Notes: generated by a model from the sequence alone, not told the origin. Positions 22,675-53,906 are shown, numbered from the stretch's first letter. The stretch: DNA of 53,906 nt from a virus (IMGVR_UViG_3300033111_000121:1-53906), one strand, 5' to 3'. Numbers and translations are program-made.

Positions 22675-22973
22675 TAGAGATCAAGCGTGAAGAAGGGGAC
22701 AGGAGATCCTATGAGGCCATTGTTGCCGAAGCCTTCGCTGAGGAGGAAGTGGTCCCTATCCCTTACCCAATCGTTCGATCAGCTCTTGCTCTGTGGTCAC
22801 ACGTTCCGACCGATCAGAACGGTACACCGATCTGGACAGAGCTGAGAGCTATACTTGAAGACCTAGCACCATCTAACAGACAAGATGTGTTTAGGCGCTT
22901 GATCACCGCAGCCTGCGACGAAAGCAGTAAAGTCCATAGAGAACTGAGAAGAGAAGCTAGAGATAATGGCTGA
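22030..22973 (+). CDS. Tail assembly chaperone frameshift product (gpGT-like), join 22030..22602, 22602..22973
   Basis: The -1 frame extension ends at TGA 22971-22973, overlapping the tape measure ATG at 22966. Track ORF 22749..22973 is its tail. Confidence 0.65.
22596..22602 (+). other. -1 programmed frameshift slippery heptamer G GGA AAC
   Basis: An X XXY YYZ heptamer in the zero frame of the chaperone. The -1 frame is open from 22587 to 22973. A GTCGTC/GACGAC stem lies downstream (22611-22646). Confidence 0.7.
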
Positions 22974-25900: not shown

Positions 25901-28900
25901 TGATCGAGGCGTCCAAGCAGTACCCTGAGCCTGTCAGGCGCGAGTGGGAGAAGATCGCCGACTCCCTCGGGGAGATCAATCAGAAGTACGACCTGTCCCT
26001 GTCCTTCGGGCGCTCGGGCGACAGCGAGATCCCCAAGATCCTTTTCCGCCTCAGGCAGCAGGAGTCGGCCGGGATCGGCCGCGCCGGTCAGGCTGCCATT
26101 GCCGGCGCTGGGCTCCTGGGTGCTGGCGCTTTCCTGGGACCCGAGGAGGCCGAGGCTCAGAGCGGTCGTGCCTTCTGGCAACAGGTAGCGAAGCGGATGG
26201 CCCGCGAGCGCGATCCTCACCAGTGGACCCCGGCGTACATCTCGGGAGGTGCGATCCCCGAGGACGCGACCCTCGAGCAGATTATGAAGCACACCGGCGT
26301 CAAGGGCCTGCTCGAGCGGACGCCGGGGCTCGATCCGATGGTCTTCCAGGGGTTCCCAGGCGGTCAGGGCTTCTGGGCGATGGCCCAGGAGGAGCAGGGT
26401 CGACAGGTGGGCGAGGCCTTCCTGAGGCGCTACGAGAAGAGCAAGAAGCACGGTACCGGAGATCCCCTGACTCCTGCCATGGCAGGGCTCGACGAGGGGC
26501 CTGGGTTCCTCGAGGGCGCGGTCGGCAGCATCCCAGGGGTGATTGGTATCGAGCTGGCTTTCGACGCGGCAGCCCGCCGCCTGGGGCTGTACGACAGGGC
26601 TGGTAGAGGGACTCAGGCGCTAGGGGCGCACCTCACCCGCCAGGGAAGCCTGCTGGGGCGCGTGGGGGCGGCTGGAGGCCTCCTGGGGAGGATTCCTGCG
26701 GGTGCCAGGGCGATCATCGGAGGGACGGGTCCTATCGGCCTGGGAATCGGCGGCGGCATGGCTGCCTGGGGTCTCATCAAGGGTTGGGCTGCTCGAGCCG
26801 ACCGGGGGCGTACAAGAGAAAACAGGCTCCATCAGATCGAGCAGGAGGCATTCAGGCTTCAAGAGCTTGTTGACGTTGCTCCTGGCTATCGCGGAACCAG
26901 GGCCGAGAAGCAGTTCGTTGGTGATCTGAACCTTCGTGAGCATTCCATCGACACTCTCGTAAGGATGGGTAGGACAAGAGGGTTTGCCGAAGAGAAGTGG
27001 TGGGAGTTCCTTGGTCCTTCTCTTGGTCTTGGTGGTACTGATTTCGAGGGCGACTTCGGTAGAGGGTTCTTGAAGGCCATGGAGGAGAACGAAGAGTTCA
27101 AGAACAGGCTATTCGAGTTCAGTCCTGTTGGTGGTGACGATGCCCTTATCAGGGTCATCAGCGATCTTGAGAGAAAGATCTCTGAACAGAATGAGATGGT
27201 GTCTCTGCTTGCGAGCAACTTGAGTGTTCGCAAAGAAGAGCTTGATGCTATCCTTGCCGGTGGCTTCGAGGGTAGAACCGATGCAGGGTACACCACTCTT
27301 GGTGAGGCTTTGACTGCGGCCGCTGGGGCTGGCATCTCCTATGAGCAAGGACTTGAGAACCTCAATGCTGTTGCAACCATCATGGCTCCGTTTGGCAAGG
27401 ACCGCTTCCGTGCTGTTGATGCGAAACTCCCCAAGCACCTTGCCGATGTGTTTGAGGCTGCTGGCATGGCTCAGTCAACTATTGATGAGTTGACAAAGGG
27501 TATTGGCTTTGCGGAAGAGTGGAAGGATGCACCAGAGCCTCCAAGAGCTTACGGCATGATTGTTCAGAGGCCTGATCCTGATCAGCTTGAGAAGGCAAGG
27601 GACATGCTCGCCCGCATGGATCCCAGGTTTGCGGCGACTCAGTTCATGCAGGATATGTTCGACGAGGCTGTACTTCCTTCCTATGAGTCCTGGGGGAGGG
27701 CAGGACACTTTGAATGGCGTCGTGAACATACAGCTCAGGCAATGATGGAAGGGATGGGCGTGACTTCGTTCATTGATCGAGGTCTTGATTTTGCCACTCC
27801 TGATAAGCGCATTGCCAAGAACCTCGAAGAACTTGACGAGTCTTACGAGATCGCTCTTGATGGCATCAGGAAGATTGCTGCCAAGAATGTGATCACTCCT
27901 GAGGAAGCAGCGGCAAGAACCGCAGAGGTAGACAAGGCCTACGAAAACATCAGAGACAGTATGACTGGTGGAATCGACGAGTTCATCGATCAGGCGCGTA
28001 GCCTGCTACCTTTGGGTGAGCAGATGGAGAGGTCTTACGAGGATCTTGCTGAGCTTAGAGACAACGCCATCGCTATTGCCGAGAGGTTGTTTACCGGAAC
28101 CGAGTTGAGTTCCAAGGTTGCTGCAATCCAGAGGTCGTTCAATCTCCAGGTGGAAGCTATTGGAGATGGCGTGGTCGATTCGTTTGTCGATGCTGCCGAT
28201 GGATTCAGGCCAACAGCGGAACAGTTCGACATCTCTGCTGCTCGCATCATGGAGCAGTATTGGGATGCGGTAAGCGTTGAAGGTGGAAGGACAGCAGAGA
28301 TCGACCTGTCCCGAGACCTGCAACTGAGAGGGTTGAGAGAAGGTCAGGTTCAAGACTTCATGGCCTCGGCCTTTGACCTTCTGCCCCTTGAGGAGCAGTT
28401 CCAGGAGCTTGTTGATCAGCTTGAGGAAGAGACGGAACTGACCAAGACCAATATCGAGAGGATGTTCTCAGAGGGAACCATCGATTCCGTAAGGGCTCTC
28501 GAGGATCTTGCCGAGGCAGACAGACGCTACGCCCTTCGTCTCAAGGCACTACAGGTTCAGTTCGAGGAGAGAGAGGTCCCCCTCCCCAGGCCGGCCGGCG
28601 TCTTCTCTGGGTTTGCTTACGACTACACTGAGCTTATCAAGGAGAGAGATCTCATTGGGCGCTCGAGAGCCTTTGCTCCTGGTGAGGAAGCTGCCTACGA
28701 TGCGTACCTTCAACAGATCAACAGGGCTCGCTTGGATACCGCTCTACAGATGGGCTTCCAGTCTCTTGGTGGAGCTGTAGGAGTCATTCCAGATCTCAAC
28801 AGGCTTGGTAGCGCCATACCTGCTCTTGGTCAACTCCCCGACCTGTGGAGAGACATGAAGCAGATGGCGGCCATGACACCCGATGACATGCGAGCTGCGG

Positions 28901-31900
28901 GGCTCACTCCGGGTCAGGCCAGGGCTCAGCAGGTAGCCACGGGAGCCGCGTTCGGGTCCACCATCGGTCAGGCGGTGGGTCTTGCCGCAGAGAGGCCCTA
29001 CGCGGGTCTGGGAGGCACTCTGGGTGGCGCTGTGGGCTCGCTCTGGGGTCCTCTTGGAACTCTGATCGGTACGCTCATCGGAACCGGGCTCGGATCCCTG
29101 GTCAAGCAGGGCAAGGATGAGGGTCTCGCTTCGATTGGTGGAGGCTATGGCACCTGGGCGTACATGACGAAGGACGAGAAGGGTCTGGGTGGTGCGGCCA
29201 AGGACATCGGAACGGCGGCGCTCCAGGGCTTCGAGGACGCCCTCGACATCCTCAATCTCGAGCTTTCCGGCCAGATCCCCGCCCTGTCCATCAAGGTTCG
29301 GGACGGCCTGTACACCATCTTCATCGGCAACTACCGGGGCGTGTTCAGGGATGCCAACGACGCCATCGCCGCCGCGATCCAGCAGCTCCTCAGCTACTCC
29401 GACTTCCAGGGGGACGTTGGCTACAACGCCCGCATCCTGACCCAGGGGCGCTTCAATGACGCCCAGGAGTTCGAGAGGGCTGTCAGCGCCATAGCGAAGA
29501 TCGCGGAGTTCGAGCGGGAGCTGAACTTCTCCGACGCCGGACTCGCCCTGGATGACTTCATTCGGGACATCAAGCGGGCCGCTCGGGAGATTGATGAGCT
29601 GGGTGGCAGCGCGGCGGCCGCCTACGCCATGGGAGGCCAGACGATTCTTGACCGCTTCGCCGACTTCCGGGGCTGGGATACGCGGTACGACGAGGCGCAG
29701 CGCTACAAGGACGATCTCAATCAGCAGCGCCAGGACTACATCGATTGGTTGCTCGAGCAGTATGACGAGCTGAACAGGCAGGCAGTGGAACGTGGTGAGG
29801 GTGGATTGCCGGGAGGTCCTCCTGATCGCCGCGCTGATCGTGAATCCTGGGATGAGTGGGCCAGAGATCTCGAGAGGGAGTACCAAGCGATCCCCGAGGA
29901 CACGGAGGATCCGGCGCTTCAGCGCCGCCGTGAGGACCTCGAGCTGCTCCTCGATTGGATCGAGAAGCTGACCGGCCTTCCAGCCCTCACCGATGCCGAC
30001 GCACGGCGTTACGCGGAAGGGATCACTAGGCAGGGAGAGATCGAGGATCGGGATTCGTTCCTGGCTCGCATGGGCGGTCGGGAGTTGGGGATGAGAGGAG
30101 GTCATCCGATCTGGAGGTTTGCCGATGGCGATCCGTTCTCCGAGATCCTGCTCGACTTCGAGAGGGACATGCTCCAGTTGGATGAGCTTCACAGGGCGTT
30201 CCCCGGCTTCTCCGAGGAGCTGGAGAAGGCGCGGCAGAACCTCGTCAGGCTCAAGAACGAGGGGCTCGCCGATCTCGGCAACCAGCTCCTTGGAGTGCTC
30301 GATCCCAACTGGAACTTCCTCCAGGGATTGAGGGACGGTCTGGAGGCCCTGGATCTGCTCAGGAACAACGCGGACGTGTTGCAGCAGTTGGGCTTGGATC
30401 CTTCGGAGATCGAGCGCTCAGGAGGCGTGTGGGCTCGCAACAACGTCCTCGACGTGTCGAGGTCTCTTGCCCAGGCCATCGGCAACCAGGACATCCTCAA
30501 CGAGCTACAGGCCCACGAACGACAGCTCCAGATCCAGGATTACGTTCAGAGGATTGAGTGGCTCAGGAACATGGGCGTGGTCTCAGGAGAGGTTGCCGAC
30601 AAGCTCAAGGACATTGCTCAGGTGGTCGAGGAGTCCCTGGGAGATGAGGACGTACAGCGCCGGCTCGACCCCAGGTACCAGCAGTCCATCGACATCCGAG
30701 ATCAGCTCAGGTACCAGGGCGATGCGCCGTTTAGGCGGTCCCTCCAGGAGTACGCCGATCAGGTGGCGACGATCCGCAAGTACCTCTTGCCCGAGGACTA
30801 CGCGGACCTGCTGCCGGAAGGAGAGATGAGCCCAGCCGAGAGACGGCTCAGGATAGACTACGCACGGCCGTACAGAGACGCTCTGCGGACGATCAGGTAC
30901 TCGGGGGACCTGGGATACCTGAGTCCCTACGATCGGATCGAGAAGCTCTCTGAGGAGTTCTTCGGGATTGCCGGCGAGGGAGTGCTTGGGTCTCGAGCAG
31001 ACGAACTTCCTGGCCTTGGTGAGAACCTGTTGAGAGAGATGGCCGCCGCTTATCCTGTTGGGTCTGCTCCGTATCAAGCTGTTCATGACAGGGTTGCTTC
31101 TGTTCTTGATGAGTTCAAGACAGACATTGAAGAGAAGTCTCTTGAAGAGCTTGGTATTGAGGGCAACGATCTCCTTACTCAGTTGGTCAACCTTGGAGAG
31201 AAGGCAGAAGAGCAGCTCAGAGAGTATTGGGGAGAGCTGTTCAAGTTGCTTGGTGATGGTCTTCCTGCTCCTGATAGACCTATTCCAGATGGTGGAACTA
31301 GGCCACAGCAACCTCCTATTGGTCAACCTCATAAGGTTTTTGATCCAAGAGACATAGATCTTACTGGCAAGGTTGGTGGAGTTGAGCTTTCCAAGAGGTT
31401 GTCTGCGCTAAAAATTCATCCTGCGGATCTTGATAACAGTGGGGCTCTTAGTGAATCTGAGATAGACAGGTGGGTCGAGTACGTTGGTCAGTGGGTTGGC
31501 CCTGATGGTGTAATCAAACAGATACCAAGATGGCAGAAATGGCTTGCTGATCATGGTATCTATACCCATATAAGCAGGGAAGAATTTCAGCATGGCTACA
31601 CTGAGTACGACACTCCAAGGCCTGGGCCAAGAGTTCCTTGGTATGTTACTCTTCCTCCAGAAAACCCAGATACTTTGTATTCTACAAGAGACTTCGATCT
31701 TAGTGGAAGAGTTGGTGGAGTTGAGTTGAAATCTATGTTTGATTACCTCACCCATCATCCTGGAGACAGAGATAAGAGTGGTGGCCTTAGTCAATGGGAA
31801 GTTCAAAAGTGGACTGAGATTGTCGGCAGGTTCCTTGATGATTCGGGTAACTACATAGATGTCCCCTACTGGCAAAAGTGGTTGGCCGAGAAGGGTGCTT

Positions 31901-32151
31901 ACGACCATCTCTCCCCAGAGGAGTTCTTGGCTGGATTTACTCCCTATGTTATTCCGAAACCTCCAGGTCCTCGTGTTGATGTTCACAGGGAACCTATTCC
32001 GCCTGCATCAACTCGTGGAGCTTTTGCGACAGAGCTTTTGCCTGGACTCTCAGAGAGTAGAAGTCAGAAACAGATAGAAGTTTCCCAGGAACAGCTTGTC
32101 GTGTTGAAGAAGCTCCTCGATGTTGCAGAGTCGCAGGGTCGAGTGGTATAG
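22966..32151 (+). CDS. Tape measure protein, 3061 aa
   Basis: Uninterrupted ORF directly after the G/GT pair. It has long helical regions and several Gly/Ala-rich hydrophobic segments. No enzymatic domain was recognised by eye. Confidence 0.8.
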   Translation: MADDVRFNVVTNVKARGFVEVASGFYLVQSAAQLAWGGVSLVRREMDKSLDTFREYEIGLIQVGKVAGIEGERLRSMGDDLDYLRTKLAKTRKDVYDSAVAAARLGLQDDQEITRLVELSLRLSKTSDLQPNDGVRILARSSAISGESLTRHMESVANVISELGDNVAASESEISGLHLEVLKGTAAWETSQRQAAAYAATLAEFNVQAEVAGTAMGKLFRRMEQGVRFPTSSIGVALQELTGMDAKQLRTLYEQSPSNVVNLVMQTIGEQFRSGEGPRPYVIGLMAELGLQSERQAKALLPMFTNPDRFQKAMEIAFSQDPAVFEKSARTERTAFHQQKAFEEHVALFRRDIGEQLQPHMSEFWISMQRILSQQDPQVIAERFANALELVLLGIEKGASMLEGVMDFMDWFGTPALIAAGGYGAFRGVKAGGKALFGKPTVEASMGRAGVMDLTVQRGGMFMGPYYDDLVKREADMRRSSLMAVEMRKDYSLSGMNEEEISSRMGKVFDEMYKDPSKIAGYTDHRAFMKDFDRDWESILQKRDSRLHYMERQANKEQVKDAAKASQDVAEQSGSRDVLKMLGIGGAMAGGAALLAPGEAEASGLRLLVKLAGREGREFASKREAWDYVLDNPGLGGVVRQGEEVLWSGRAPSRAAWEAQQMARGGQFQYDMPEAEEIARSITGQRGEGWSRFQEFEEQLDNAFFSDDFNNIASGEWTLIKHGDVVEMEKASEMFGERARGILQAEAAYGGQREATQALGERLEGYAAEARRYTQEAVSVHGRPGTLAERFAAADADVAASAGRAAPTRVSMEEALEDIRQRDFEELLEMIGSQPSLAQGIPSGRGRLGASPLARFLEGGDLGRAGMSPAARAASEAASERRFLSSLEEFQGASMEDLLERASTSYRTDLAARGRTAEQIEASFARWSEQPDFFRAQRARPVAEAGDPSLVIPEFLSGARSRAFTPLSDDQIESLSGRLIEASKQYPEPVRREWEKIADSLGEINQKYDLSLSFGRSGDSEIPKILFRLRQQESAGIGRAGQAAIAGAGLLGAGAFLGPEEAEAQSGRAFWQQVAKRMARERDPHQWTPAYISGGAIPEDATLEQIMKHTGVKGLLERTPGLDPMVFQGFPGGQGFWAMAQEEQGRQVGEAFLRRYEKSKKHGTGDPLTPAMAGLDEGPGFLEGAVGSIPGVIGIELAFDAAARRLGLYDRAGRGTQALGAHLTRQGSLLGRVGAAGGLLGRIPAGARAIIGGTGPIGLGIGGGMAAWGLIKGWAARADRGRTRENRLHQIEQEAFRLQELVDVAPGYRGTRAEKQFVGDLNLREHSIDTLVRMGRTRGFAEEKWWEFLGPSLGLGGTDFEGDFGRGFLKAMEENEEFKNRLFEFSPVGGDDALIRVISDLERKISEQNEMVSLLASNLSVRKEELDAILAGGFEGRTDAGYTTLGEALTAAAGAGISYEQGLENLNAVATIMAPFGKDRFRAVDAKLPKHLADVFEAAGMAQSTIDELTKGIGFAEEWKDAPEPPRAYGMIVQRPDPDQLEKARDMLARMDPRFAATQFMQDMFDEAVLPSYESWGRAGHFEWRREHTAQAMMEGMGVTSFIDRGLDFATPDKRIAKNLEELDESYEIALDGIRKIAAKNVITPEEAAARTAEVDKAYENIRDSMTGGIDEFIDQARSLLPLGEQMERSYEDLAELRDNAIAIAERLFTGTELSSKVAAIQRSFNLQVEAIGDGVVDSFVDAADGFRPTAEQFDISAARIMEQYWDAVSVEGGRTAEIDLSRDLQLRGLREGQVQDFMASAFDLLPLEEQFQELVDQLEEETELTKTNIERMFSEGTIDSVRALEDLAEADRRYALRLKALQVQFEEREVPLPRPAGVFSGFAYDYTELIKERDLIGRSRAFAPGEEAAYDAYLQQINRARLDTALQMGFQSLGGAVGVIPDLNRLGSAIPALGQLPDLWRDMKQMAAMTPDDMRAAGLTPGQARAQQVATGAAFGSTIGQAVGLAAERPYAGLGGTLGGAVGSLWGPLGTLIGTLIGTGLGSLVKQGKDEGLASIGGGYGTWAYMTKDEKGLGGAAKDIGTAALQGFEDALDILNLELSGQIPALSIKVRDGLYTIFIGNYRGVFRDANDAIAAAIQQLLSYSDFQGDVGYNARILTQGRFNDAQEFERAVSAIAKIAEFERELNFSDAGLALDDFIRDIKRAAREIDELGGSAAAAYAMGGQTILDRFADFRGWDTRYDEAQRYKDDLNQQRQDYIDWLLEQYDELNRQAVERGEGGLPGGPPDRRADRESWDEWARDLEREYQAIPEDTEDPALQRRREDLELLLDWIEKLTGLPALTDADARRYAEGITRQGEIEDRDSFLARMGGRELGMRGGHPIWRFADGDPFSEILLDFERDMLQLDELHRAFPGFSEELEKARQNLVRLKNEGLADLGNQLLGVLDPNWNFLQGLRDGLEALDLLRNNADVLQQLGLDPSEIERSGGVWARNNVLDVSRSLAQAIGNQDILNELQAHERQLQIQDYVQRIEWLRNMGVVSGEVADKLKDIAQVVEESLGDEDVQRRLDPRYQQSIDIRDQLRYQGDAPFRRSLQEYADQVATIRKYLLPEDYADLLPEGEMSPAERRLRIDYARPYRDALRTIRYSGDLGYLSPYDRIEKLSEEFFGIAGEGVLGSRADELPGLGENLLREMAAAYPVGSAPYQAVHDRVASVLDEFKTDIEEKSLEELGIEGNDLLTQLVNLGEKAEEQLREYWGELFKLLGDGLPAPDRPIPDGGTRPQQPPIGQPHKVFDPRDIDLTGKVGGVELSKRLSALKIHPADLDNSGALSESEIDRWVEYVGQWVGPDGVIKQIPRWQKWLADHGIYTHISREEFQHGYTEYDTPRPGPRVPWYVTLPPENPDTLYSTRDFDLSGRVGGVELKSMFDYLTHHPGDRDKSGGLSQWEVQKWTEIVGRFLDDSGNYIDVPYWQKWLAEKGAYDHLSPEEFLAGFTPYVIPKPPGPRVDVHREPIPPASTRGAFATELLPGLSESRSQKQIEVSQEQLVVLKKLLDVAESQGRVV

Positions 32152-41067: not shown

Positions 41068-41142
41068 TGCGGGGTGGAGCAGTGGTAGCTCGTCTGGCTC
41101 ATTACCAGAAGGCCGAAGGTTCAATTCCTTCCCCCGCAACCA
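41068..41142 (+). tRNA. tRNA with CAU anticodon (Met or Ile2 type), CCA encoded
   Basis: Manual cloverleaf: acceptor TGCGGGG/CCCCGCA, D arm GAGC-AGTGGTA-GCTC, anticodon arm TCTGG-CTCATTA-CCAGA, variable loop AGGCC, T arm GAAGG-TTCAATT-CCTTC, discriminator A, CCA. Confidence 0.85.
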
Positions 41143-44551: not shown

Positions 44552-45034
44552 ATGGCGCACAATCGAGCGACTGAACAAGCGAAGGCTCTTGGTCTAGAAA
44601 GGATGGAGCAGGCTCGCCGCATCCTCCTTGCTGATCGTGACAGCACATGGTTCGACACTGCCTGTTCTGCGAGTGGTGGTGGGCAACTCATGGACCGGAA
44701 CTGGTATGCCCGGTGCAGGGTAGCCATGTGGCACGATGGGATCCTATTGGCCGATGATGGCAATTGGGCCAGCTTCTTGCGGGAGATCAACCATTGGCCC
44801 TCGATGCTCTGGGCGGCTCTCTTGGTGGCCACAGAGCTTAGGAGGACGGTAGAGGGCATCTACCCCTCCGATCAGGCAAACAACCTCGCCATGACGATCA
44901 GGACCGCTCAGGGAGTGACTATTTCCAAGGCCGATTGGGTACCGAAGAATCTGACCCGGCACAGCCAGTTGAAGATCCTGAGCTGGTGCGGAGTTGTTGG
45001 GGGCAGCTTGCCCTCAGTGCAGGCGTTCCAGTGA
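44552..45034 (+). CDS. Hypothetical protein, 160 aa
   Basis: Track ORF trimmed to ATG 44552, which follows GGAGTAGAGG. Confidence 0.55.
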   Translation: MAHNRATEQAKALGLERMEQARRILLADRDSTWFDTACSASGGGQLMDRNWYARCRVAMWHDGILLADDGNWASFLREINHWPSMLWAALLVATELRRTVEGIYPSDQANNLAMTIRTAQGVTISKADWVPKNLTRHSQLKILSWCGVVGGSLPSVQAFQ

Positions 45035-45156
45035 TTCGTCGTCGCCGAATTCTTCGCGCCATACGGCATACCTTTGGGCCGTGGCCCTGGGTAGGGGTGG
45101 CGTTGATGGTGCTTGGGGCTGGAGCCTGCGTTCGCGGCGTTGTGGAGGTGCTCTGA
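45031..45156 (+). CDS. Small membrane peptide, 41 aa
   Basis: GTGA overlap upstream and TGATG overlap downstream. Sequence VIRRRRILRAIRHTFGPWPWVGVALMVLGAGACV... Confidence 0.35.
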   Translation: MIRRRRILRAIRHTFGPWPWVGVALMVLGAGACVRGVVEVL

Positions 45157-45899
45157 TGACTCGCATTGACATGATCGACGAGGCCACTCGCAACTACGAG
45201 GGTCGGCGCACCAAGGACGGCCGCCCGTACCTGTCTACGCTCAACAGGCGCTTCATGCCGGCCCGAATCACTGGCAGCGAGAGGGATGCCTCCTACAAGA
45301 GAGTTCGGGGCCGGAAGACCGGCTATGCCCGCGAGATCGAGGAACTGGCTCAGTTCTTGGTTCGGGACTTCCACGATTGGTCGGCTCAGGGTCAATACTT
45401 CCTCGAGCCTGGGTTCAGGGATTTAGTGGGCAGGTCTAACAAAACGATCTCGGTTCACTACCTCGCTCTCCGCGACGATTGGGAAGATGATTGTCGTCGA
45501 GCCCTTGATGCGTGGGAGCGGCTTGGTTTCGAGTTTGAGGAAGGTGATGATCCTCTGACTGTTGATGTGGTTGTTGACGATGAGAAGCGAGGAGCATTCG
45601 CTTTGAGGCGCATGGGCTACGTTGGCAGACATCAGGATGGAAAGCCTGTTGTTCACTCTGTTGCTCGAGAGATCAACATCTGGAAGGAATGGCCTGAGTG
45701 GCAACTGTATCATGCCATGGTGCATGAGATTGGTCATGTGCTTGGCCTTGGTCACCCTGGCCCTTACAACGCACAGCGCCCTCCTCAAGCAAACCCACAT
45801 GACACAGCAAAGAACAGCGTCATGAGCTATTACGGTAGAGGTAAGGGCGTAATAGGTGATGCTGATCGCCTTGCAATCGATATGATTTACGGAGATTGA
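45156..45899 (+). CDS. Metzincin-type zinc metallopeptidase, 247 aa
   Basis: HEIGHVLGLGH (HExxHxxGxxH) followed by SVMSYY (Met-turn). Confidence 0.75.
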   Translation: MTRIDMIDEATRNYEGRRTKDGRPYLSTLNRRFMPARITGSERDASYKRVRGRKTGYAREIEELAQFLVRDFHDWSAQGQYFLEPGFRDLVGRSNKTISVHYLALRDDWEDDCRRALDAWERLGFEFEEGDDPLTVDVVVDDEKRGAFALRRMGYVGRHQDGKPVVHSVAREINIWKEWPEWQLYHAMVHEIGHVLGLGHPGPYNAQRPPQANPHDTAKNSVMSYYGRGKGVIGDADRLAIDMIYGD

Positions 45900-49059: not shown

Positions 49060-49815
49060 GTGCCTTGCACTACGGTACCCACATCGAGGGCCGAGGGAAG
49101 CCTGATCGGTTTCACTGAGACCACGAGAAGGCTTCGCCTCGGTACCCTCGATGCCGCCCGTGAAGAGGCGGTCAGATCCATCCTCGAGGAGGTCACGGAT
49201 CTAGCTGCCGATGTCATTGGCAGGAGCATCGTCCTTCGCTACTACCGGATGAATGTCTGGGAGGAGAGGAAGACGAACGAGCTGCTCCTTGACCATTGGC
49301 CGATCGATCCGGGCTCCGTCACCTTCACCCTTCCCGAGGGAGAGGAGCTGGGGGAGTGGAGGATTCTCGAGGACTCTCTCTGGGCCGAGAAGGGGTGGCC
49401 GATGCCTCTGGAGGTTCGCTACGCTGCGGGATGGGTACCCCCGCACCTGATCAAGGATTGGGCGGCGAGAACCGAGTACGCGGCCGGCGATTGGGTGCGG
49501 CCCTCGAGTTATATTGGGCTCCTCCAAGTAAACGAGGACTGGACGAGCGCCGCTGCGGAGGTCAACTGGACGGACGCCGATGTGCGCCCGGAAGAGGTGG
49601 CCTACCGGCGCGTGGAGGAGTTGCCCCGCTCGATCATCGCCGCTTGTTACGAAGCGGTCATCGCTCTGTGGCGTCGCCGTGACTTTCCTCGAGACATCGT
49701 TGAGATGCAGGCAGAGGGCGTCAGGATCAGGTTCGACGAGGGGAGGGGCGGTGACTCCACCGGCCTCTCCAAGCGCTTCTACGAGACCCTGGAGCGCTAC
49801 AGGGCGGTGGTCTGA
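49060..49815 (+). CDS. Head-tail connector-like protein, 251 aa
   Basis: The position and N-terminal pattern (EEAVRSILEEVTDLAADVIGRSIV) resemble gp6-type connectors. The assignment is weak. Confidence 0.45.
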   Translation: MPCTTVPTSRAEGSLIGFTETTRRLRLGTLDAAREEAVRSILEEVTDLAADVIGRSIVLRYYRMNVWEERKTNELLLDHWPIDPGSVTFTLPEGEELGEWRILEDSLWAEKGWPMPLEVRYAAGWVPPHLIKDWAARTEYAAGDWVRPSSYIGLLQVNEDWTSAAAEVNWTDADVRPEEVAYRRVEELPRSIIAACYEAVIALWRRRDFPRDIVEMQAEGVRIRFDEGRGGDSTGLSKRFYETLERYRAVV

Positions 49816-51089: not shown

Positions 51090-51780
51090 CAGTCAGGAGC
51101 TTCGCAGGGAGTTCCGCATGATGATCGCCGACCTCGAGGCGCGGCGGTACAAGAAGAAAAAGGACCGCGACGGCGAAGAGGAAGAGGTCGAGGAGCTGAG
51201 GCTCGAAGGCTACGCTTCCACCTTCGACGAGAAGTACGAGGTCTGGGACTTCGATGAGGTTGTCAGAAAGGGCGCGTTCAAGAGGACTCTTCGTGAGGAC
51301 GACATCAGAGCCCTGTGGAACCACAGGTCCGACATCGTTCTTGGCCGCAACAAGGCTGGCACACTCGACCTCAGCGAGGACAGCAAGGGCCTTCGGGTTC
51401 GGATCCACCTGCCGGACACCCAACAGGCTCGAGACCTCTACACCTCTGTCGAAAGGGGTGACGTTGACCAGATGAGCTTTGGCTTCCAGTGTCGGGAGGA
51501 GAAGTGGAAGAAGGCCGAGAAGAAGGGTGAGCGCCCTCTCCGCGAGCTGCTCGACGTTCGGATGCTCGAGGTCTCTCCGGTCACCTTCCCGGCCAACGAT
51601 GGCACCAGCATCGCCGCTCGAGGCGAATGCCCCGCAGAGGTGCGGTCGGCATACGAGGAGAACCGCTGGGAGGACCCAGAAGCGCCTGAGGGCCCCCCGG
51701 CCCCGCCAGAGCAGCCCCCTGGGCCGGAAGATCGCGCCGATCTGGACGCCCTGGAAGCCAGAATGGAGGCTTTGGGTTGA
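51070..51780 (+). CDS. Prohead protease, HK97 (S78) family, 236 aa
   Basis: LEGYASTFD...GAFKRTL...LWNHRSDIVLG...MSFGF...VTFPAN. ATG 51070 follows GGAGGAGGA. Confidence 0.85.
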   Translation: MATTDVDSQELRREFRMMIADLEARRYKKKKDRDGEEEEVEELRLEGYASTFDEKYEVWDFDEVVRKGAFKRTLREDDIRALWNHRSDIVLGRNKAGTLDLSEDSKGLRVRIHLPDTQQARDLYTSVERGDVDQMSFGFQCREEKWKKAEKKGERPLRELLDVRMLEVSPVTFPANDGTSIAARGECPAEVRSAYEENRWEDPEAPEGPPAPPEQPPGPEDRADLDALEARMEALG

Positions 51781-52088
51781 TGTCCTTCGTTGACGACCCC
51801 AGGATTGTGAAGAGCGAATCAGTGAGTGCTATCGAACAGAGAATCCCGAGCGGCCCTTCAAGCTCGAGGAGCTGCTGTTCGCGGTCTATTCGAGGTGCAA
51901 GTGCGGGGCTGGGCTCGCTTTATCCCAGAAACGTGGGACCAAGAGGATCTTGGCGCTGCTCGGCAATCCTGATGGGCGAGGCAAGCGCCGAGGACGAGCA
52001 CGATGGGGCCATGCCTTTTATCTTCTGGAAGATCAAGGGCGAGGGTCAGCCTTCGGCCGGTGGCGCTACGACGAGGCCTGAGAGTTGA
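51780..52088 (+). CDS. Hypothetical protein with conflicting frame signals, 102 aa as read
   Basis: ATG 51780 overlaps the protease TGA. The central third has low GC3 in this frame, while the -1 frame is open with high GC3 (see findings). Confidence 0.4.
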   Translation: MSFVDDPRIVKSESVSAIEQRIPSGPSSSRSCCSRSIRGASAGLGSLYPRNVGPRGSWRCSAILMGEASAEDEHDGAMPFIFWKIKGEGQPSAGGATTRPES

Positions 52089-52267
52089 GAGAGGATGACA
52101 TCTGGGAGTTGAAGCGCAAGCTCAACGAGCTTGAGCGAAGACTGGAGAACTTGGTGATGATCGTGACGGGACTGGACACACAGCAGGTCGCACCTAGTAG
52201 CAGCAGCAGCCACGATCATCACGTCCCCATCCATGGTCCGGCAGACTGCCGTCCTGGGTTCTCCTGA
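52085..52267 (+). CDS. Small coiled-coil protein, 60 aa
   Basis: ORF track; TTG start with TTGA overlap. Confidence 0.45.
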   Translation: MREDDIWELKRKLNELERRLENLVMIVTGLDTQQVAPSSSSSHDHHVPIHGPADCRPGFS

Positions 52268-52296
52268 GGGGATTGAACCCAGGCCCGGTCGGGGCC

Positions 52297-52324
52297 TTGA
52301 CATTTATTGGGCAGGTCCTATAAT
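52297..52324 (+). promoter_or_regulatory. Consensus sigma70 promoter (TTGACA, 16 nt, TATAAT)
   Basis: Both hexamers are perfect. The ATG at 52331 lies 7 nt after the -10 element, which predicts a leaderless transcript. Confidence 0.7.
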
Positions 52325-52330
52325 GGGGGC

Positions 52331-52492
52331 ATGAGTGAACGACTCTCACCTCAAGACTGGAAGCCCAGACGCATCTACTACAACTGGCCGTACTACGGTC
52401 CAATCAACTCTCTCTGCCCTCGAGACAGGCCCAAGCCCATCGGGCGCTCGCGCCCGGTGTTGAGGACCATGAAGAGGGGGTTGCCGAAGTGA
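52331..52492 (+). CDS. Small basic protein, 53 aa, probably leaderless
   Basis: It has no SD, and the ATG sits at the predicted transcription start. It is the in-frame tail of track ORF 52307..52492. Confidence 0.45.
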   Translation: MSERLSPQDWKPRRIYYNWPYYGPINSLCPRDRPKPIGRSRPVLRTMKRGLPK

Positions 52493-52695
52493 TCAAGCAA
52501 TTCTCAAAAGGTTGTATGGACACAAGGAGAAACAGGTATGAGTACACTCCTTTTCCATGGCAACTTCGTCCAAAGGTTGACTGGTACAAGGTTGGCAGGA
52601 TGGTAGCCTTTGCTCTTCCTCCCATTGTTTGGGGAGCGCTCATTACCGCATTACCCTTCGCCTTCTTTGTTCTTCTTACCTGGATTGTGTCATGA
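52489..52695 (+). CDS. Small membrane protein, 68 aa
   Basis: GTGA overlap. Hydrophobic segment MVAFALPPIVWGALITALPFAFFVLLTWIV. Confidence 0.5.
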   Translation: MIKQFSKGCMDTRRNRYEYTPFPWQLRPKVDWYKVGRMVAFALPPIVWGALITALPFAFFVLLTWIVS

Positions 52696-53642
52696 CTAGG
52701 ATTCGTCGTACCAAGGCACAGCTTGAGCGCCACGACAACCTAGTTGCATCCCTGGTAGCTCAGTCAGCGCCCGTTAGCGTTCGCAACATCTACTACCAGT
52801 TGGTAGCGATGGGTGAGATCCCCAAGACGGAGAAGGCTTACAAGAACCTCGATGTTCGCATGGTCAAGATGCGCCGGAACGGCATGATCGCCTACTCGGA
52901 CATCGTGGATGCCGGCAGGGCTGGGCAGCACTACTACGGGGCTCGCCTGGGGCCTGAGGAGTGGCTCAGCGAGCGGATCGACAAGGGGTACAGGTCAGAC
53001 CCCTGGAATGAGGAAGAAGTCCCTCACGTCGAGATCTGGTGCGAGTCCAGCTCGGTCGCCGGCATGTTGAACAAGGTGGCCGTGGAGCACCGCATCTCGA
53101 TCACCGCCTGCCGTGGCTTCTCGAGTCTGACTCTGGCATACAACGGAGCCGGGGTCATGAACTGGAGGACCGAGGACCTCGACCGGCCGATCCGCATCCT
53201 CTACGTTGGGGACTACGATCCGGCCGGCGTCCTGATCGACCAGTCTCTCTTCCAGGAGCTATGCGACCATTGCAACAGTTGGCCCGAGATCACCCGCGTC
53301 GCGGTGAACGAGGAGCAGATCACGGAGATGAACCTCCCCACCCGTCCTCGCAAGCACACGGACCTCAGGGCTCAGCACATCCAGGAGACCGTCGAGACTG
53401 AGGCGATCCCGGCCGGGACCCTCCGCGAGATGGTTGCCGACGCGGTGAAGAAGCTGATCCCGGAGTGCGATGAGCGCCTTGAGAAGGCGACCGCCCTGGA
53501 CAGCGCCCGACGAGATCGATTTATTGGGCTCGTCAAACATATCAAGCCCTACGGGATCGAGGGGGCAATCGACAAGCTCAAGCTGAAAGAGCCACCGGCC
53601 GAAGATCCCTTTGCGGTCGTCGACCAGTTCGATTGGGCATGA
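52692..53642 (+). CDS. Spo11/Topo VI-A-like protein (5Y-CAP-like winged helix plus Toprim), 316 aa
   Basis: SVRNIYYQL resembles the catalytic-tyrosine motif. VEIWCESSSVAG supplies the Toprim Glu and ILYVGDYDPAGVLI the DxD. TVETEAIP follows. ATGA overlap with the upstream gene. Confidence 0.6.
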   Translation: MTRIRRTKAQLERHDNLVASLVAQSAPVSVRNIYYQLVAMGEIPKTEKAYKNLDVRMVKMRRNGMIAYSDIVDAGRAGQHYYGARLGPEEWLSERIDKGYRSDPWNEEEVPHVEIWCESSSVAGMLNKVAVEHRISITACRGFSSLTLAYNGAGVMNWRTEDLDRPIRILYVGDYDPAGVLIDQSLFQELCDHCNSWPEITRVAVNEEQITEMNLPTRPRKHTDLRAQHIQETVETEAIPAGTLREMVADAVKKLIPECDERLEKATALDSARRDRFIGLVKHIKPYGIEGAIDKLKLKEPPAEDPFAVVDQFDWA

Positions 53643-53866
53643 ACTGTTCCTGGCAAAGCATCGTTGTTTGGTCAAGCAAGTCTGGTGAACGATATCTCAG
53701 GCAGCGTTGTAAGTGCGGGGCGCGTCGAGATATGCGATTCAATCCAGACGGTTCAACGGAGCCCGCTTTGCACCCTGAATGCCTATCTAACCCCATAGTT
53801 TCACCTCAACCCGTGGACCTCGATGAGGAATCAGGTCCACAATCCTCACAGACAGCACCCTCATAG
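53639..53866 (+). CDS. Small Cys-containing protein, 75 aa
   Basis: ATGA overlap with the upstream stop. Contains NCSW...CKCG. Confidence 0.45.
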   Translation: MNCSWQSIVVWSSKSGERYLRQRCKCGARRDMRFNPDGSTEPALHPECLSNPIVSPQPVDLDEESGPQSSQTAPS

Positions 53867-53906
53867 CTCGAGGGAATAGGTCTTGGAGTCGGTCGGAATG
53901 AGGTGT
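53787..53906 (-). CDS. 3-prime end of the junction-spanning fiber-like CDS (continues from nt 1)
   Basis: Manual translation across the junction ends ...LSVRIVDLIPHRGPRVEVKLWG, with TAG at 53789-53787. Confidence 0.6.
   Translation of the reverse strand, partial: TPHSDRLQDLFPRAMRVLSVRIVDLIPHRGPRVEVKLWG
53852..53906. repeat. Terminal 55-nt identity with 1..55
   Basis: Read directly. Confidence 0.9.

What the first reader, a model, noticed from the sequence alone, without database searches (positions are those of the whole stretch)
52281..53866. Self-contained cassette: perfect sigma70 promoter, leaderless ORF, membrane protein, Spo11/Topo VI-A-like protein, Zn-ribbon protein
A short GC hairpin (AGGCCC/GGGCCT, 52281-52297) follows the head operon. 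Right after it comes the only perfect TTGACA-16nt-TATAAT promoter I found in the genome. An ATG sits 7 nt past the -10 element with no SD, so a leaderless mRNA is predicted.

Four genes follow, chained by GTGA/ATGA overlaps: a 53-aa basic protein, a 68-aa membrane protein, a 316-aa protein and a 75-aa Cys protein. The 316-aa protein shows the hallmarks of the type IIB topoisomerase A subunit/Spo11:
- A winged-helix region with SVRNIYYQL, comparable to the R-[DE]-I-[YF]-Y catalytic tyrosine motif.
- A Toprim glutamate in VEIWCES.
- A DxD in YVGDYDPAG.
- A TVETEAI block.

No ATPase (B-subunit-like) partner is present anywhere in the genome. A-subunit-only relatives have been reported in mobile elements (called Mini-A), and JetD of Wadjet has a related fold, but their roles are largely unknown. 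The strong autonomous promoter and the membrane partner look like a moron-type or exclusion/defence-like module rather than a core replication gene.
Basis: partly seen in the sequence, partly recalled or inferred. Interest (0 to 1): 0.78.

Follow-up and report, generated by a model that had tools for sequence, protein, structure and literature searches.

The report
Phage insert carrying half-topoisomerase gene
A 1.5-kb extra segment in this phage genome has its own strong promoter and encodes a DNA-cutting protein related to the cleavage half of topoisomerase VI/Spo11; this protein kind (Mini-A) is already described but its function is unknown, and the proposed zinc-ribbon gene is probably not a gene.

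Summary
TTGACA-16-TATAAT (52297-52324) is the only 12/12 sigma-70 match in the genome, with 0 matches in 100 shuffles. An ATG lies exactly at the predicted transcription start.

The 316-aa protein is an A-subunit-only type IIB topoisomerase homologue:
- It matches PHROG 6247, 'DNA topoisomerase', at E=3.7e-42.
- Its only significant Foldseek hits in the PDB are M. mazei Topo VI-A.
- A profile of its family hits 1D3Y at the DxD motif.
- It matches the published Mini-A exemplar, phage NP1 gp49, at E=1e-17.

Arg31, Tyr35, Glu118, Asp174, Asp176 and Glu235 are essentially invariant in 110 homologues. No GHKL ATPase partner was found in the genome.

The protein belongs to a distinct clade. Its T2BI box reads TVE(A/T)EA(M/I), not the Mini-A signature xWELDAL. 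The clade otherwise sits beside primases in integrase/AlpA elements of Pseudomonadota.

Two related phages have protease and the convergent 1140-aa gene abutting. The cassette is therefore an insertion, as in a moron.

Several parts of the finding are not supported:
- The upstream hairpin is no better than chance.
- The 75-aa 'Zn-ribbon' ORF has no CxxC pairs and no coding signature.
- That ORF also overlaps a significant stem-loop and the conserved end of the opposite gene.
- The 53-aa and 68-aa ORFs have no homologues anywhere.

A defence role is untested. The genomic context of relatives favours replication or recombination.

The parts
52281..52297 (+). Short inverted repeat AGGCCC/GGGCCT, 14 nt after the stop of the 60-aa ORF 52085-52267. 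It overlaps the -35 hexamer by one base.
   Evidence: Present in the sequence. It is not significant: z = -0.09 and it is absent from the predicted fold. It has no T-run and was not called terminator-like.
52297..52324 (+). Consensus sigma-70 promoter: TTGACA, 16 nt, TATAAT.
   Evidence: It is the only exact match in the window, with 0 matches in 100 shuffles. It is the only 12/12 site, with none at 11/12. Function is inferred, not shown.
52331..52492 (+). Candidate leaderless ORF of 53 aa, basic and Pro/Arg-rich. Its ATG lies exactly at the predicted +1.
   Evidence: In-frame GC3 is 0.76, reaching 0.85 in a 120-nt window over 52360-52479, but GC1 is lower than GC2. It has no homologue among 1.84 billion representative proteins and was not called by gene finders. 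Its status is open.
52489..52695 (+). 68-aa ORF (GTG start) with a basic N-terminus and one predicted C-terminal transmembrane helix. It overlaps the Mini-A-like start by ATGA.
   Evidence: It was called by the public gene finder. Hydropathy is 2.22 at residues 46-64. It has no homologue. GC is 46% and GC3 0.48, so there is no codon-position signal. The next gene has no Shine-Dalgarno sequence, so its translation probably depends on this ORF being translated (inference).
52692..53642 (+). 316-aa A-subunit-only type IIB topoisomerase homologue (Mini-A-like). Winged-helix/5Y-CAP domain about residues 1-100 (Arg31, Tyr35). Toprim domain about residues 110-230 (Glu118, Asp174, Asp176, Gly179). T2BI-box equivalent TVETEAI at residues 233-239.
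   Evidence: PHROG 6247 at E=3.7e-42. AF2 model with pLDDT 80.5. Foldseek top hits are Topo VI-A 9o8p_A and 9o7o_A with probability 1.0. A family profile hits 1D3Y at E=0.002 over the DxD motif. NP1 gp49 matches at E=1e-17. Residue conservation is shown. The codon signal is strong, with GC3 0.80.
53680..53749 (.). Long imperfect stem-loop in the 144-nt spacer between the Mini-A-like stop and the stop of the convergent 1140-aa gene. It is probably the 3' boundary of the inserted module, acting as a terminator or stabiliser hairpin.
   Evidence: -31.8 kcal/mol, z = -3.17, 0 of 200 shuffles as stable. It has no U-tract, so it is not a canonical intrinsic terminator. The relatives have no spacer at all at this position.
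53639..53866 (+). 75-aa ORF ('Cys/Zn-ribbon protein' of the finding), judged most likely not a gene.
   Evidence: GC3 is 0.47. There are no CxxC pairs. It spans the stem-loop. It overlaps by 80 nt the conserved C-terminus of the opposite gene. It was not called and has no homologues near related genes.
53787..53906 (-). 3' end of a convergent 1140-aa gene (stop codon 53787-53789). The gene continues across the circular junction into window 1-3358. It is the right-hand neighbour of the insertion.
   Evidence: Gene table. Translation, plus 53% and 35% identity to the equivalent genes of L040 and L041 through the last residue ...LWG*. The window is a closed circle with a 55-bp overlap.

Best explanation
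The segment from about 52268 to 53786 is an accessory insertion, moron-like in anatomy. It sits at the point where the late (head) genes on the + strand meet a convergent 1140-aa gene.

The module carries one solid gene. Its product has only the DNA-cleavage half of a type IIB topoisomerase: a 5Y-CAP winged helix plus a Toprim domain, with no ATPase subunit.

The module brings its own consensus sigma-70 promoter, so host RNA polymerase can transcribe it independently of the phage late programme. The transcript should start at or next to the A of ATG 52331. It therefore begins either with a leaderless 53-codon ORF or with a 158-nt leader. It then runs through a 68-codon ORF (a predicted tail-anchored membrane peptide). 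That ORF's stop overlaps the start of the Mini-A-like gene, which has no Shine-Dalgarno sequence, so translation is probably coupled. The transcript ends in a stable stem-loop at 53680-53749.

By analogy with Top6A/Spo11, the protein most likely acts as a homodimer. Tyr35, positioned by Arg31, would attack the DNA backbone with Mg2+ held by Glu118, Asp174 and Asp176 of the partner subunit. This would give a 5'-phosphotyrosyl break. The TVETEAI box (Glu235) would cover the tyrosine of the other subunit.

Without an ATP-operated gate it cannot be a strand-passage topoisomerase. The most likely role is a DNA nicking or breaking-rejoining step that serves replication or recombination of the mobile element's own DNA. 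This is suggested by where its relatives sit: next to primases, or next to Sak4, a Cas4-like nuclease and a helicase.

Shown: the anatomy, the homology, the fold, the residue conservation, the absence of a B subunit, and insertion relative to two relatives. Inferred: promoter activity, the leaderless start, translational coupling, dimeric cleavage chemistry, and the biological role.
For: Protein identity:
- PHROG 6247 'DNA topoisomerase' at E=3.7e-42.
- The AF2 model has the beta1-Glu and beta3-DxD Toprim topology.
- The only Foldseek PDB hits below 1e-3 are Topo VI-A chains.
- A family profile hits 1D3Y at E=0.002, aligning GDYDPAG with TDGDPYG.
- tblastn finds 78 phage records, including the Mini-A exemplar NP1 gp49 at E=1e-17.
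- The published definition of Mini-A is in PMC7671362.

Catalytic residues:
- Arg31 and Tyr35 are present in 106 of 106 sequences that have a residue there.
- Glu118 is 110/110, Asp174 109/110, Asp176 110/110 and Glu235 109/110.

No B subunit.

Insertion:
- The relatives L040 (portal 67% identical) and L041 (48%) run capsid, x, x, portal, S78 protease, then (in L041 only) a 61-aa ORF, then the stop of the 1140-aa homologue.
- Base composition is heterogeneous: Mini-A-like gene 61% GC with GC3 0.80, orf68 46% GC, genome 56.7%.

Promoter.

Coupling: 43 of 68 genes have a strong Shine-Dalgarno sequence, but the Mini-A-like ATG has none.

Stem-loop.

Context of relatives:
- NP1: ligase, Mini-A, Sak4, Cas4-like nuclease, helicase.
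- Integrative elements: integrase, AlpA, the gene, then Toprim_3/DUF3631, Prim-Pol/D5_N or PriCT_2 primases, an HK97 capsid or a small terminase.
- This phage has its own DEAD helicase, AAA_24 (Sak4-like), PDDEXK_1 and SSB genes.
Against: - No Mini-A has a demonstrated activity or phenotype. Reviews up to Dec 2024 call the role unexplored.
- In this phage the gene is not inside the replication/recombination block. It lies 15 kb away, behind the head genes, under a promoter unlike anything else in the genome. That placement fits an accessory or competitive function as well.
- Only two relatives were available for the synteny argument, and one is an 8-kb fragment.
- The promoter, the transcription start and the leaderless translation are predictions.
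- orf53 and orf68 have no homologues, and orf68 has no coding signature.
- The stem-loop lacks a U-tract.
- The host is unknown. Pseudomonadota is only suggested by the distribution of the clade.
Confidence: 0.55

Rival explanations
1. Exclusion or defence module. The A-only Toprim/5Y-CAP protein would be a nuclease, expressed constitutively from the strong promoter. It would cut incoming competitor DNA (other phages, satellites or plasmids), perhaps localised or regulated by the small membrane peptide. This would resemble the Toprim nucleases JetD/MksG of Wadjet.
For: - The module is an insertion absent from two relatives.
- It has an autonomous consensus promoter that is unique in the genome.
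- A predicted membrane peptide is translationally linked upstream.
- There is a weak local JetD similarity at the DxD motif.
- The nearest clade lives in satellite-like elements, which often carry interference genes.
Against: - No PADLOC family matches beyond a 31-residue stretch at E=0.0083.
- The top 50 structural neighbours include Topo VI-A but no JetD or MksG.
- No SMC/JetABC-type partner appears in the gene tables.
- The membrane ORF has no homologues and is never found next to about 110 related genes.
- In the relatives examined the gene sits in the replication part of the element, commonly at a fixed position, not in variable cargo hotspots.
Confidence: 0.2
2. Single-gene module. Only the Mini-A-like gene is real. 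orf53 and orf68 would be chance ORFs inside a 360-nt 5' leader, and orf75 would be non-coding.
For: - orf53 and orf68 have no homologues in 1.84 billion and 5.8 billion sequences respectively.
- orf68 has GC3 0.48 and no frame signal.
- orf53 has GC1 lower than GC2, unlike real genes here.
- An open run of 53 codons has roughly a 14% chance in this base composition (own estimate).
Against: - The ATG lies exactly at the predicted +1, and in-frame GC3 is 0.76-0.85.
- The Mini-A-like start has no Shine-Dalgarno sequence and overlaps the orf68 stop (ATGA), in a genome where most genes have one.
- orf68 encodes a clean basic-N-terminus plus transmembrane-helix peptide.
Confidence: 0.25
3. Selfish homing-type endonuclease gene. 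The DNA-cleaving protein would promote its own spread by cutting cassette-less relatives at the junction between protease and the 1140-aa gene, then being copied in by repair.
For: - Presence or absence is polymorphic at a precise intergenic point among relatives.
- It is free-standing with its own promoter, as for phage HNH/GIY-YIG homing genes.
- The genome carries other HNH genes.
Against: - The family keeps a stable position beside primase, AlpA or integrase genes in more than 100 elements at 35-45% identity. That is not the pattern of a homing gene.
- No flanking repeat stands out. One 11-nt repeat was found, with 0.04 expected by chance.
- No type IIB A-subunit homologue is known to home (own knowledge).
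Confidence: 0.07

Closest known systems
Mini-A (A-subunit-only type IIB topoisomerase homologues of viruses and proviruses; Takahashi et al. 2019, PMC7671362; exemplar Pseudomonas phage NP1 gp49; PHROG 6247)
   Same: - About 300 aa with only a 5Y-CAP and a Toprim domain.
- The N-terminal B-interacting part of Top6A is missing.
- The RxxYY motif (RxxFY in the rest of the clade), the Toprim Glu and DxDxxG are conserved.
- It is virus-encoded, with no B subunit nearby.
- Sequence homology is significant (E=1e-17 to 7e-24, 25-28% identity).
   Different: - The T2BI box is TVETEAI (clade consensus TVEAEAMPA), not the Mini-A signature xWELDAL.
- The Toprim Glu context is WCES(R)S, not VEKxAL.
- The DxD context is GDYDPAG, not GDHDPSG.
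- The clade lives mostly in integrase/AlpA/primase elements of Pseudomonadota.
- Here the gene is not in the replication block. It is a promoter-bearing insertion behind the head genes.
Topo VI A subunit / Spo11 (PDB 1D3Y, 9o8p)
   Same: - Same two-domain fold, and the best structural match.
- The catalytic Tyr with an Arg four residues upstream.
- Glu plus DxD metal ligands.
- The conserved Glu and Ala of the T2BI box.
   Different: - No B subunit or TOPOVIBL-like partner.
- About 50-100 residues shorter at the N-terminus.
- Below Pfam thresholds for the TP6A_N and TOP6A-Spo11_Toprim families.
- The first T2BI position is Thr, not Arg/Lys.
Topo VIII (plasmid-borne fused B-A type IIB topoisomerase)
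   Same: - It is encoded on mobile elements.
- Its T2BI box RVELNAM shares V-E-x-x-A-M with this clade's TVEAEAM.
   Different: - Topo VIII has a Bergerat ATPase, an H2TH domain and a transducer fused N-terminally. None is present here.
- The Arg/Pro after the catalytic Tyr that is typical of Topo VIII is absent.
JetD/MksG nuclease of Wadjet (DUF2399 Toprim)
   Same: A Toprim domain with DxD, preceded by a winged-helix-type domain. There is weak local profile similarity (E=0.0083; DUF2399 at E=0.02-0.08).
   Different: - No JetABC/SMC partners.
- No DUF3322/DUF2220 N-terminal arm.
- JetD/MksG is not among the top 50 structural matches.
- The catalytic Tyr motif is strictly conserved here.
Phage morons (promoter, gene and terminator units inserted between conserved genes; Hendrix/Juhala concept, own knowledge)
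   Same: - An extra segment between genes that are adjacent in relatives.
- Its own sigma-70 promoter.
- A stable hairpin at the 3' end.
- Base composition that deviates from the genome.
   Different: - No U-tract terminator.
- No evidence that the phage is temperate, since no integrase was found.
- The cargo is a DNA enzyme rather than a typical host-fitness factor.

Membership tests
Type IIB topoisomerase A-subunit superfamily (Top6A/Spo11 fold) | 5Y-CAP winged-helix domain with a catalytic Tyr in an R-x-x-[YF]-Y motif | tested here: met
   The motif is S29-V-R31-N-I-Y34-Y35. Arg31 and Tyr35 are invariant in 106/106 homologues that have a residue there, and are aligned with LRQLYY of the Mini-A exemplars.
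Type IIB topoisomerase A-subunit superfamily (Top6A/Spo11 fold) | Toprim domain with an acidic Glu after beta1 and DxDxxG after beta3 | tested here: met
   Glu118 is 110/110. G173-D174-Y-D176-P-A-G179 is 109-110/110. A family profile aligns the DxD motif to TDGDPYG of 1D3Y at E=0.002. The AF2 strands 112-117 and 167-172 precede these residues.
Type IIB topoisomerase A-subunit superfamily (Top6A/Spo11 fold) | Overall structural similarity to Top6A | tested here: met
   The only two Foldseek PDB hits with E<1e-3 are M. mazei Topo VI chain A (9o8p_A over 313 columns, probability 1.00, and 9o7o_A). TM-scores are only 0.30-0.36, as expected if the two domains are oriented differently.
Type IIB topoisomerase A-subunit superfamily (Top6A/Spo11 fold) | T2BI box [RK]-x-E-x-x-[AS] | tested here: inconclusive
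   Glu235 and Ala238 are conserved, but the first position is Thr, not Arg/Lys.
Type IIB topoisomerase A-subunit superfamily (Top6A/Spo11 fold) | Match to the Pfam TP6A_N or TOP6A-Spo11_Toprim models at gathering threshold | tested here: not met
   The window protein has no Pfam hit at E<=1. Only 3 of 28 relatives reach E=0.017 for TOP6A-Spo11_Toprim.
Topo VI holoenzyme / Topo VIII (functional type IIB topoisomerase) | GHKL/Bergerat ATPase plus transducer, as a B subunit or a fused N-terminal half | tested here: not met
   No HATPase-type family appears in the gene tables that cover all but about 3 kb of the genome. None appears in 10 further large proteins. The gap holds no ORF above 239 aa. 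The protein starts 26 residues before the winged helix.
Mini-A (Takahashi et al. 2019) | About 300 aa, with only 5Y-CAP and Toprim domains and without the N-terminal B-binding part | tested here: met
   The protein is 316 aa, and the domain layout follows.
Mini-A (Takahashi et al. 2019) | Sequence homology to the described members (NP1, Listeria provirus) | tested here: met
   NP1 gp49 at E=1e-17, Listeria phage LWP01 at E=7e-24 and Microbacterium phages at E=1e-21. It also matches PHROG 6247.
Mini-A (Takahashi et al. 2019) | Signature T2BI box xWELDAL | tested here: not met
   The box reads TVETEAI here and TVEAEAM in 100+ clade members. The three canonical Mini-As in the same alignment have SWELDA[LI]. 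It is therefore filed as a Mini-A-like sister clade, not as a canonical Mini-A.
Mini-A (Takahashi et al. 2019) | Encoded by a virus or provirus, with no B-like gene nearby | tested here: met
   The genome is a complete 53.85-kb circular phage genome with terminase, portal, capsid and tape-measure genes. No B subunit was found.
JetD/MksG (Wadjet nuclease) | DUF3322/DUF2220 N-terminal region plus a DUF2399 Toprim, encoded with JetABC | tested here: not met
   There is only a 31-residue match at E=0.0083. No SMC-type genes appear. It is not among the top structural hits.
Moron (autonomous promoter-gene-terminator insertion) | Absent from the same position in related phages | tested here: met
   In L040 and L041 the protease and the 1140-aa homologue abut, from a 17-nt overlap up to a 180-nt spacer. 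Only two relatives were available.
Moron (autonomous promoter-gene-terminator insertion) | Own promoter and terminator | tested here: inconclusive
   There is a 12/12 consensus promoter and a significant 3' stem-loop. The stem-loop has no U-tract, and the activity of either element cannot be tested with these tools.
Zn-ribbon protein (claim for the 75-aa ORF) | Two CxxC/CPxC knuckles in a real coding sequence | tested here: not met
   Cysteines lie at 3, 24, 26 and 48 only. There is no coding signature. The ORF overlaps the stem-loop and the conserved end of the opposite gene. The best NCBIfam hit is at E=0.24.
Leaderless mRNA | Transcript 5' end at the A of the AUG | not testable with these tools
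   The geometry fits: the ATG starts 7 nt after the -10 element. There are no transcript data.

The most novel reading that the evidence does not exclude
The TVEAEAM clade may be a fourth, undescribed subfamily of type IIB A-subunit enzymes. Its native job would be to make a site-specific, tyrosine-linked DNA break that starts or resolves replication of satellite-like integrative elements, working with the adjacent primase and winged-helix protein. This phage would then have captured one copy and rewired it, under a constitutive leaderless promoter together with a new membrane peptide, as a weapon or counter-weapon in phage-satellite or phage-phage conflict.
Probability: 0.12. Interest if true: 0.7.

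Novelty: new variant of a known kind. Interest (0 to 1): 0.4.

Why it matters
Mini-A proteins are the least understood branch of the Topo VI/Spo11 family. No activity or biological role has been reported (PMC7671362; reviews up to 2024). They also bear on whether the ancestor of Spo11/Top6A was a stand-alone viral protein.

This locus offers two things:
- It is a compact construct that is easy to move: promoter, two tiny ORFs and the enzyme. It is absent from sister phages, so a deletion should be tolerated and a phenotype can be tested.
- It points to a large, coherent sister clade with a different dimer-interface (T2BI) box. More than 270 proteins were found, and 123 genome loci encoded a relative (the best 80 were fetched). 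The clade sits next to primases in integrase/AlpA elements, which gives a testable hypothesis for its function.

The finding is not a new kind of system. The protein family is already annotated 'DNA topoisomerase' in phage databases.

Tried and rejected
- Pfam, NCBIfam and PADLOC scans of the four ORFs gave nothing usable. There were no Pfam hits, one NCBIfam hit at E=0.24, and one JetD hit at E=0.0083.
- A single-sequence search of the PDB gave only noise.
- A broader profile that included canonical Mini-As did not extend the 1D3Y match to the Tyr region.
- Foldseek against viral predicted structures (BFVD) gave no hit below 1e-3, only generic Toprim and primase matches.
- blastn of the cassette against deposited phages gave no match.
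- A portal-based scan of IMG/VR for close relatives gave none. Relatives had to be found through the protein database.
- tblastn of orf53, orf68 and orf75 against the loci then fetched (30 viral loci, three deposited phages and the window's own contig) gave only chance hits.
- Homologue searches for orf68 and orf53 gave none.
- Neighbour gene families of the clade were searched in the window. Only a packaging-type HNH matched. There was no partner winged-helix protein or primase.
- An Rfam scan of 51700-53906 found no known RNA family.
- The upstream hairpin as a terminator was rejected.
- A search for flanking direct repeats as insertion scars found only one 11-mer, AAGTGCGGGGC, at 51899 and 53711. 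About 0.04 such matches are expected by chance, so this is not convincing.
- The 60-aa ORF 52085-52267 was compared with the 61-aa ORF at the same position in L041. There was no significant similarity (E=6.3), so the left border of the insertion could be as far left as 51781.
- PHROG and Pfam scans of other unannotated genes did not clarify lifestyle or host.


Full report
**What is in the sequence.**

The coordinates of the finding are accurate:
- AGGCCC at 52281-86 and GGGCCT at 52292-97.
- TTGACA at 52297-52302, a 16-nt spacer, and TATAAT at 52319-52324.
- An ATG at 52331, seven bases after the -10 hexamer. That is where sigma-70 transcription usually starts.

The promoter is the one exact match to TTGACA-N16-18-TATAAT on either strand of the 53.9-kb window. 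None was found in 100 dinucleotide-preserving shuffles. My own scan found no 11/12 site and only three 10/12 sites. The promoter is therefore real as a sequence feature and well beyond chance. Its activity is inferred.

The short hairpin in front of it is not remarkable. It is not part of the minimum-energy fold of its surroundings. The region folds no better than shuffles (z = -0.09). It has no T-run, and the terminator scan did not list it.

Four ORFs follow, with GTGA, ATGA and ATGA overlaps, as described.

**The genome around it.**

The window is a closed circular assembly. Its first and last 55 bases are identical, which gives a unit of 53,851 bp. The same genome exists as a 53,992-bp contig with a 141-bp overlap.

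Public gene tables with precomputed Pfam hits show a phage with these genes:
- TerS and TerL, a 3061-aa tape-measure protein, a DEAD helicase, AAA_24 (Sak4-like), PDDEXK_1 and a lysozyme.
- HNH, a capsid protein, a portal protein and an S78 protease, all on the + strand.
- An early block including SSB on the - strand.

The cassette is the last thing on the + strand. Immediately downstream a 1140-aa gene runs towards it on the - strand. Its stop codon is at 53787-53789, and the gene wraps across the window ends.

**The 316-aa protein.**

Pfam gives nothing. PHROG 6247, annotated 'DNA topoisomerase', matches at E=3.7e-42 over residues 6-261.

The protein database returned 273 homologues. Apart from the identical protein itself they are at most 45% identical, and almost all are unnamed. 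Their alignment has these invariant residues: Ser29, Arg31, Tyr35, Glu114, Trp116, Glu118, Ser119, Gly173, Asp174, Asp176, Pro177, Ala178, Gly179, Thr233, Val234, Glu235 and Glu237.

A profile of that alignment hits one meaningful PDB sequence, the M. jannaschii Topo VI A subunit 1D3Y (E=0.002). It aligns GDYDPAG with TDGDPYG and the following 'DLPTKPRK' with 'DLPTHPLK'.

An AlphaFold model built on the alignment has mean pLDDT 80.5. It shows an N-terminal helical/winged-helix domain and a four-stranded Toprim-type domain. Glu118 follows the first strand and the DxD motif follows the third. Foldseek against the PDB gives exactly two hits below 1e-3, both chain A of M. mazei Topo VI, with probability 1.00. 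One spans 313 columns. Everything else is generic Rossmann-like noise at E>0.01.

tblastn against deposited phages finds 78 records at 25-28% identity. One is Pseudomonas phage NP1 gp49 (E=1e-17), which is an exemplar in the paper that defined 'Mini-A' (PMC7671362).

In a joint alignment, Arg31, Tyr35, Glu118, Asp174, Asp176, Gly179, Glu235 and Ala238 are shared between this protein, its clade and three canonical Mini-As.

Across 110 clade members, counted over sequences that have a residue at the position:
- Arg31 and Tyr35: 106/106.
- Glu118: 110/110.
- Asp174: 109/110.
- Asp176: 110/110.
- Glu235: 109/110.

The protein is a Spo11/Top6A-like cleavage module with an intact active site. The Toprim glutamate in 'VEIWCES' is the second Glu, Glu118.

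No GHKL ATPase is present. None appears in the Pfam tables for about 51 of 53.85 kb. None appears in ten further large proteins scanned directly. The uncovered gap has no ORF above 239 aa.

**Same family or not.**

The Mini-A paper states that a short C-terminal 'T2BI' box discriminates the subfamilies:
- xWELDAL in Mini-A.
- RVELNAM in Topo VIII.
- [RK]xExx[AS] in Topo VI.

Here the box is TVETEAI, and in the clade it is an almost invariant TVEAEAMPA. The canonical Mini-As in the same alignment read SWELDA[LI]. The sequence around the Toprim Glu (WCESRS against VEKxAL) and the DxD context (GDYDPAG against GDHDPSG) also differ.

Both domains of the window protein are closer to the new clade than to canonical Mini-A. 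The winged-helix domain is about 33% against 24% identical, and the Toprim domain about 47% against 26%. Within the clade the protein branches deep. It keeps YYQ, as in canonical Mini-A, where the clade has FYR.

I therefore file it as an A-only type IIB homologue that is homologous to Mini-A but belongs to a sister clade, because it fails the published Mini-A signature. It also stays below Pfam thresholds. Its N-terminal domain gives sub-threshold hits to DUF7739, and its Toprim region to DUF2399 and TOP6A-Spo11_Toprim.

**Where the relatives live.**

In NP1 the gene lies between the DNA ligase and the Sak4-like, Cas4-like and helicase genes. In Listeria phage LWP01 it lies in the early region, upstream of the DNA polymerase.

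The closer clade (35-45% identical) is found in chromosomes of many Alpha-, Beta- and Gammaproteobacteria and a few other phyla. There it sits in small integrative elements with these layouts:
- Tyrosine integrase, AlpA, small ORFs, the gene, then a Toprim_3/DUF3631 primase.
- A DUF3987 protein, the gene, then a small terminase.
- A PriCT_2 primase, the gene, then Mob_Pre relaxases.

In 109 loci the commonest neighbours are these:
- A roughly 196-aa winged-helix-like protein directly downstream, at +1 in 31 loci.
- Primases (Toprim/DUF927, Toprim_3, Prim-Pol/D5_N).
- An HK97 capsid, an HNH endonuclease, AlpA and an integrase.

This is the layout of satellite-like islands, and the gene sits in their replication part. 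None of these neighbour families is present in the window except a packaging-type HNH.

**The cassette is an insertion.**

No close relative of this phage is in INPHARED or IMG/VR. The portal protein, however, has two relatives in the protein database, at 67% and 48% identity.

Their contigs show the same unusual order: capsid, small ORF, a 261- or 326-aa ORF, portal and S78 protease. The convergent large gene then follows either overlapping the protease by 17 nt (L040) or after one 61-aa ORF (L041). That large gene is the homologue of the 1140-aa gene, at 53% and 35% identity. The alignment runs to the very last residues...RGPRVEVKLWG*.

The roughly 1.5 kb from 52268 to 53786 therefore has no counterpart in these relatives. 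The border could lie as far left as 51781, because the 102-aa and 60-aa ORFs also lack detectable counterparts.

Composition is heterogeneous:
- Mini-A-like gene: 61% GC, GC3 0.80.
- orf68: 46% GC.
- Whole genome: 56.7% GC.

Together with the private promoter and a 3' hairpin (described below), this is the anatomy of a moron.

**The three small ORFs.**

orf53 starts exactly at the predicted +1 and shows in-frame GC3 of 0.76, reaching 0.85 in a 120-nt window over 52360-52479. However, its GC1 is lower than its GC2. It was not called by the public gene finders. It has no homologue among 1.84 billion representative proteins. It is a reasonable but unproven leaderless gene.

orf68 was called by the gene finder, and it encodes a basic N-terminus plus one clear transmembrane helix. 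It has no homologue in 5.8 billion clusters and no codon-position signal. The best argument that it is translated is indirect. Of 68 genes, 43 have a strong Shine-Dalgarno sequence, whereas the Mini-A-like ATG has none and overlaps the orf68 stop.

orf75 should be dropped, for these reasons:
- Its four cysteines form no CxxC knuckles.
- Its GC3 is the lowest of the three frames.
- Its centre is a 70-nt stem-loop (53680-53749, -31.8 kcal/mol, z = -3.17, 0 of 200 shuffles).
- Its last 26 codons are the antisense of the conserved C-terminus of the 1140-aa protein.

The stem-loop lies in the 144-nt spacer between the two convergent stops, a spacer that the relatives lack. It is best read as the 3' end of the inserted transcription unit.

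No known RNA family is present in the region.

**How it most likely works.**

Shown: the sequence anatomy, the homology, the fold, conservation of the active site, the absence of an ATPase partner, and the insertion.

Inferred from established Top6A/Spo11 chemistry (1D3Y; PMC7671362):
- The protein forms a homodimer.
- Tyr35 of one subunit, positioned by Arg31, attacks DNA next to the Mg2+ site (Glu118, Asp174, Asp176) of the other subunit.
- This gives a 5'-phosphotyrosyl intermediate.
- Glu235 of the T2BI box contacts the Arg/Tyr pair across the dimer.

With no ATP gate, the enzyme can nick, break or rejoin DNA but cannot carry out directed strand passage. Because its relatives sit beside primases, or beside Sak4, a Cas4-like nuclease and a helicase, I favour a role in starting or resolving replication or recombination of the element's own DNA. 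My confidence in that specific role is about 0.45.

The defence or exclusion reading remains possible (about 0.2). The module is an autonomous insertion, and Toprim nucleases do serve in Wadjet and Gabija. Nothing positive supports it, however.

No Mini-A activity or phenotype has been published. Reviews to December 2024 call the role unexplored.

**Verdict.**

The protein assignment is correct and already has a name in the literature and in PHROGs.

Three points are modestly new:
- The clade-specific T2BI box.
- The clade's home in satellite-like islands.
- This copy being a promoter-equipped insertion in a full-size phage.

Interest is moderate.

Noticed in passing
window 1-55 and 53852-53906: The first and last 55 bases are identical, so the window is a closed circular assembly of 53,851 bp. 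Genes run across the junction, for example the 1140-aa minus-strand gene that ends at 53787.
   Followed up: yes
window 53680-53749: A 70-nt imperfect stem-loop (-31.8 kcal/mol, z = -3.17) lies between two convergent stop codons. It has no U-tract. It is probably a terminator or RNA-stabilising hairpin of the inserted module.
   Followed up: partly
L035-L038, L002-L031, L042-L121 (related loci): A large clade of Mini-A-like genes with T2BI box TVEAEAMPA occupies a recurring, often fixed slot in integrase/AlpA/primase islands of Pseudomonadota, which often carry an HK97 capsid, an HNH or a small terminase. In 31 of 109 loci it is followed directly by an uncharacterised winged-helix-like protein of about 196 aa with no Pfam family.
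   Followed up: partly
window 22966-32151 (+): A 3061-aa ORF matches the tape-measure family PF10145. That is unusually long for a 54-kb phage.
   Followed up: no
window 16121-51780: The module order is unusual. Terminase and tail genes are separated from capsid, portal and protease by about 15 kb of helicase, AAA_24, PDDEXK and lysozyme genes, and the capsid gene precedes the portal gene. The two portal relatives (L040, L041) share the capsid-to-protease order.
   Followed up: partly
window 52046-52303 (-) versus 52085-52267 (+): The public gene call here is an 85-aa minus-strand ORF. The 60-aa plus-strand coiled-coil ORF has the better codon-position signal (GC1 0.59, GC2 0.41, GC3 0.70) and is probably the real gene. 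The 102-aa call at 51780-52088 has a weak signal.
   Followed up: partly
window 51899-51909 and 53711-53721: The 11-nt direct repeat AAGTGCGGGGC occurs once left of the cassette and once in the apex of the 3' stem-loop. About 0.04 such matches are expected by chance. It could be a recombination scar or a coincidence.
   Followed up: no
window 41068-41142 (+): A single tRNA-Met (anticodon CAT) gene.
   Followed up: no
window 49060-49815 (+) and 44994-45899 (+): There are weak sub-threshold Pfam hints: a GIY-YIG domain (E=0.01) in the 251-aa ORF between capsid and portal, and a zinc-metallopeptidase motif (E=0.002) in a 301-aa ORF.
   Followed up: no
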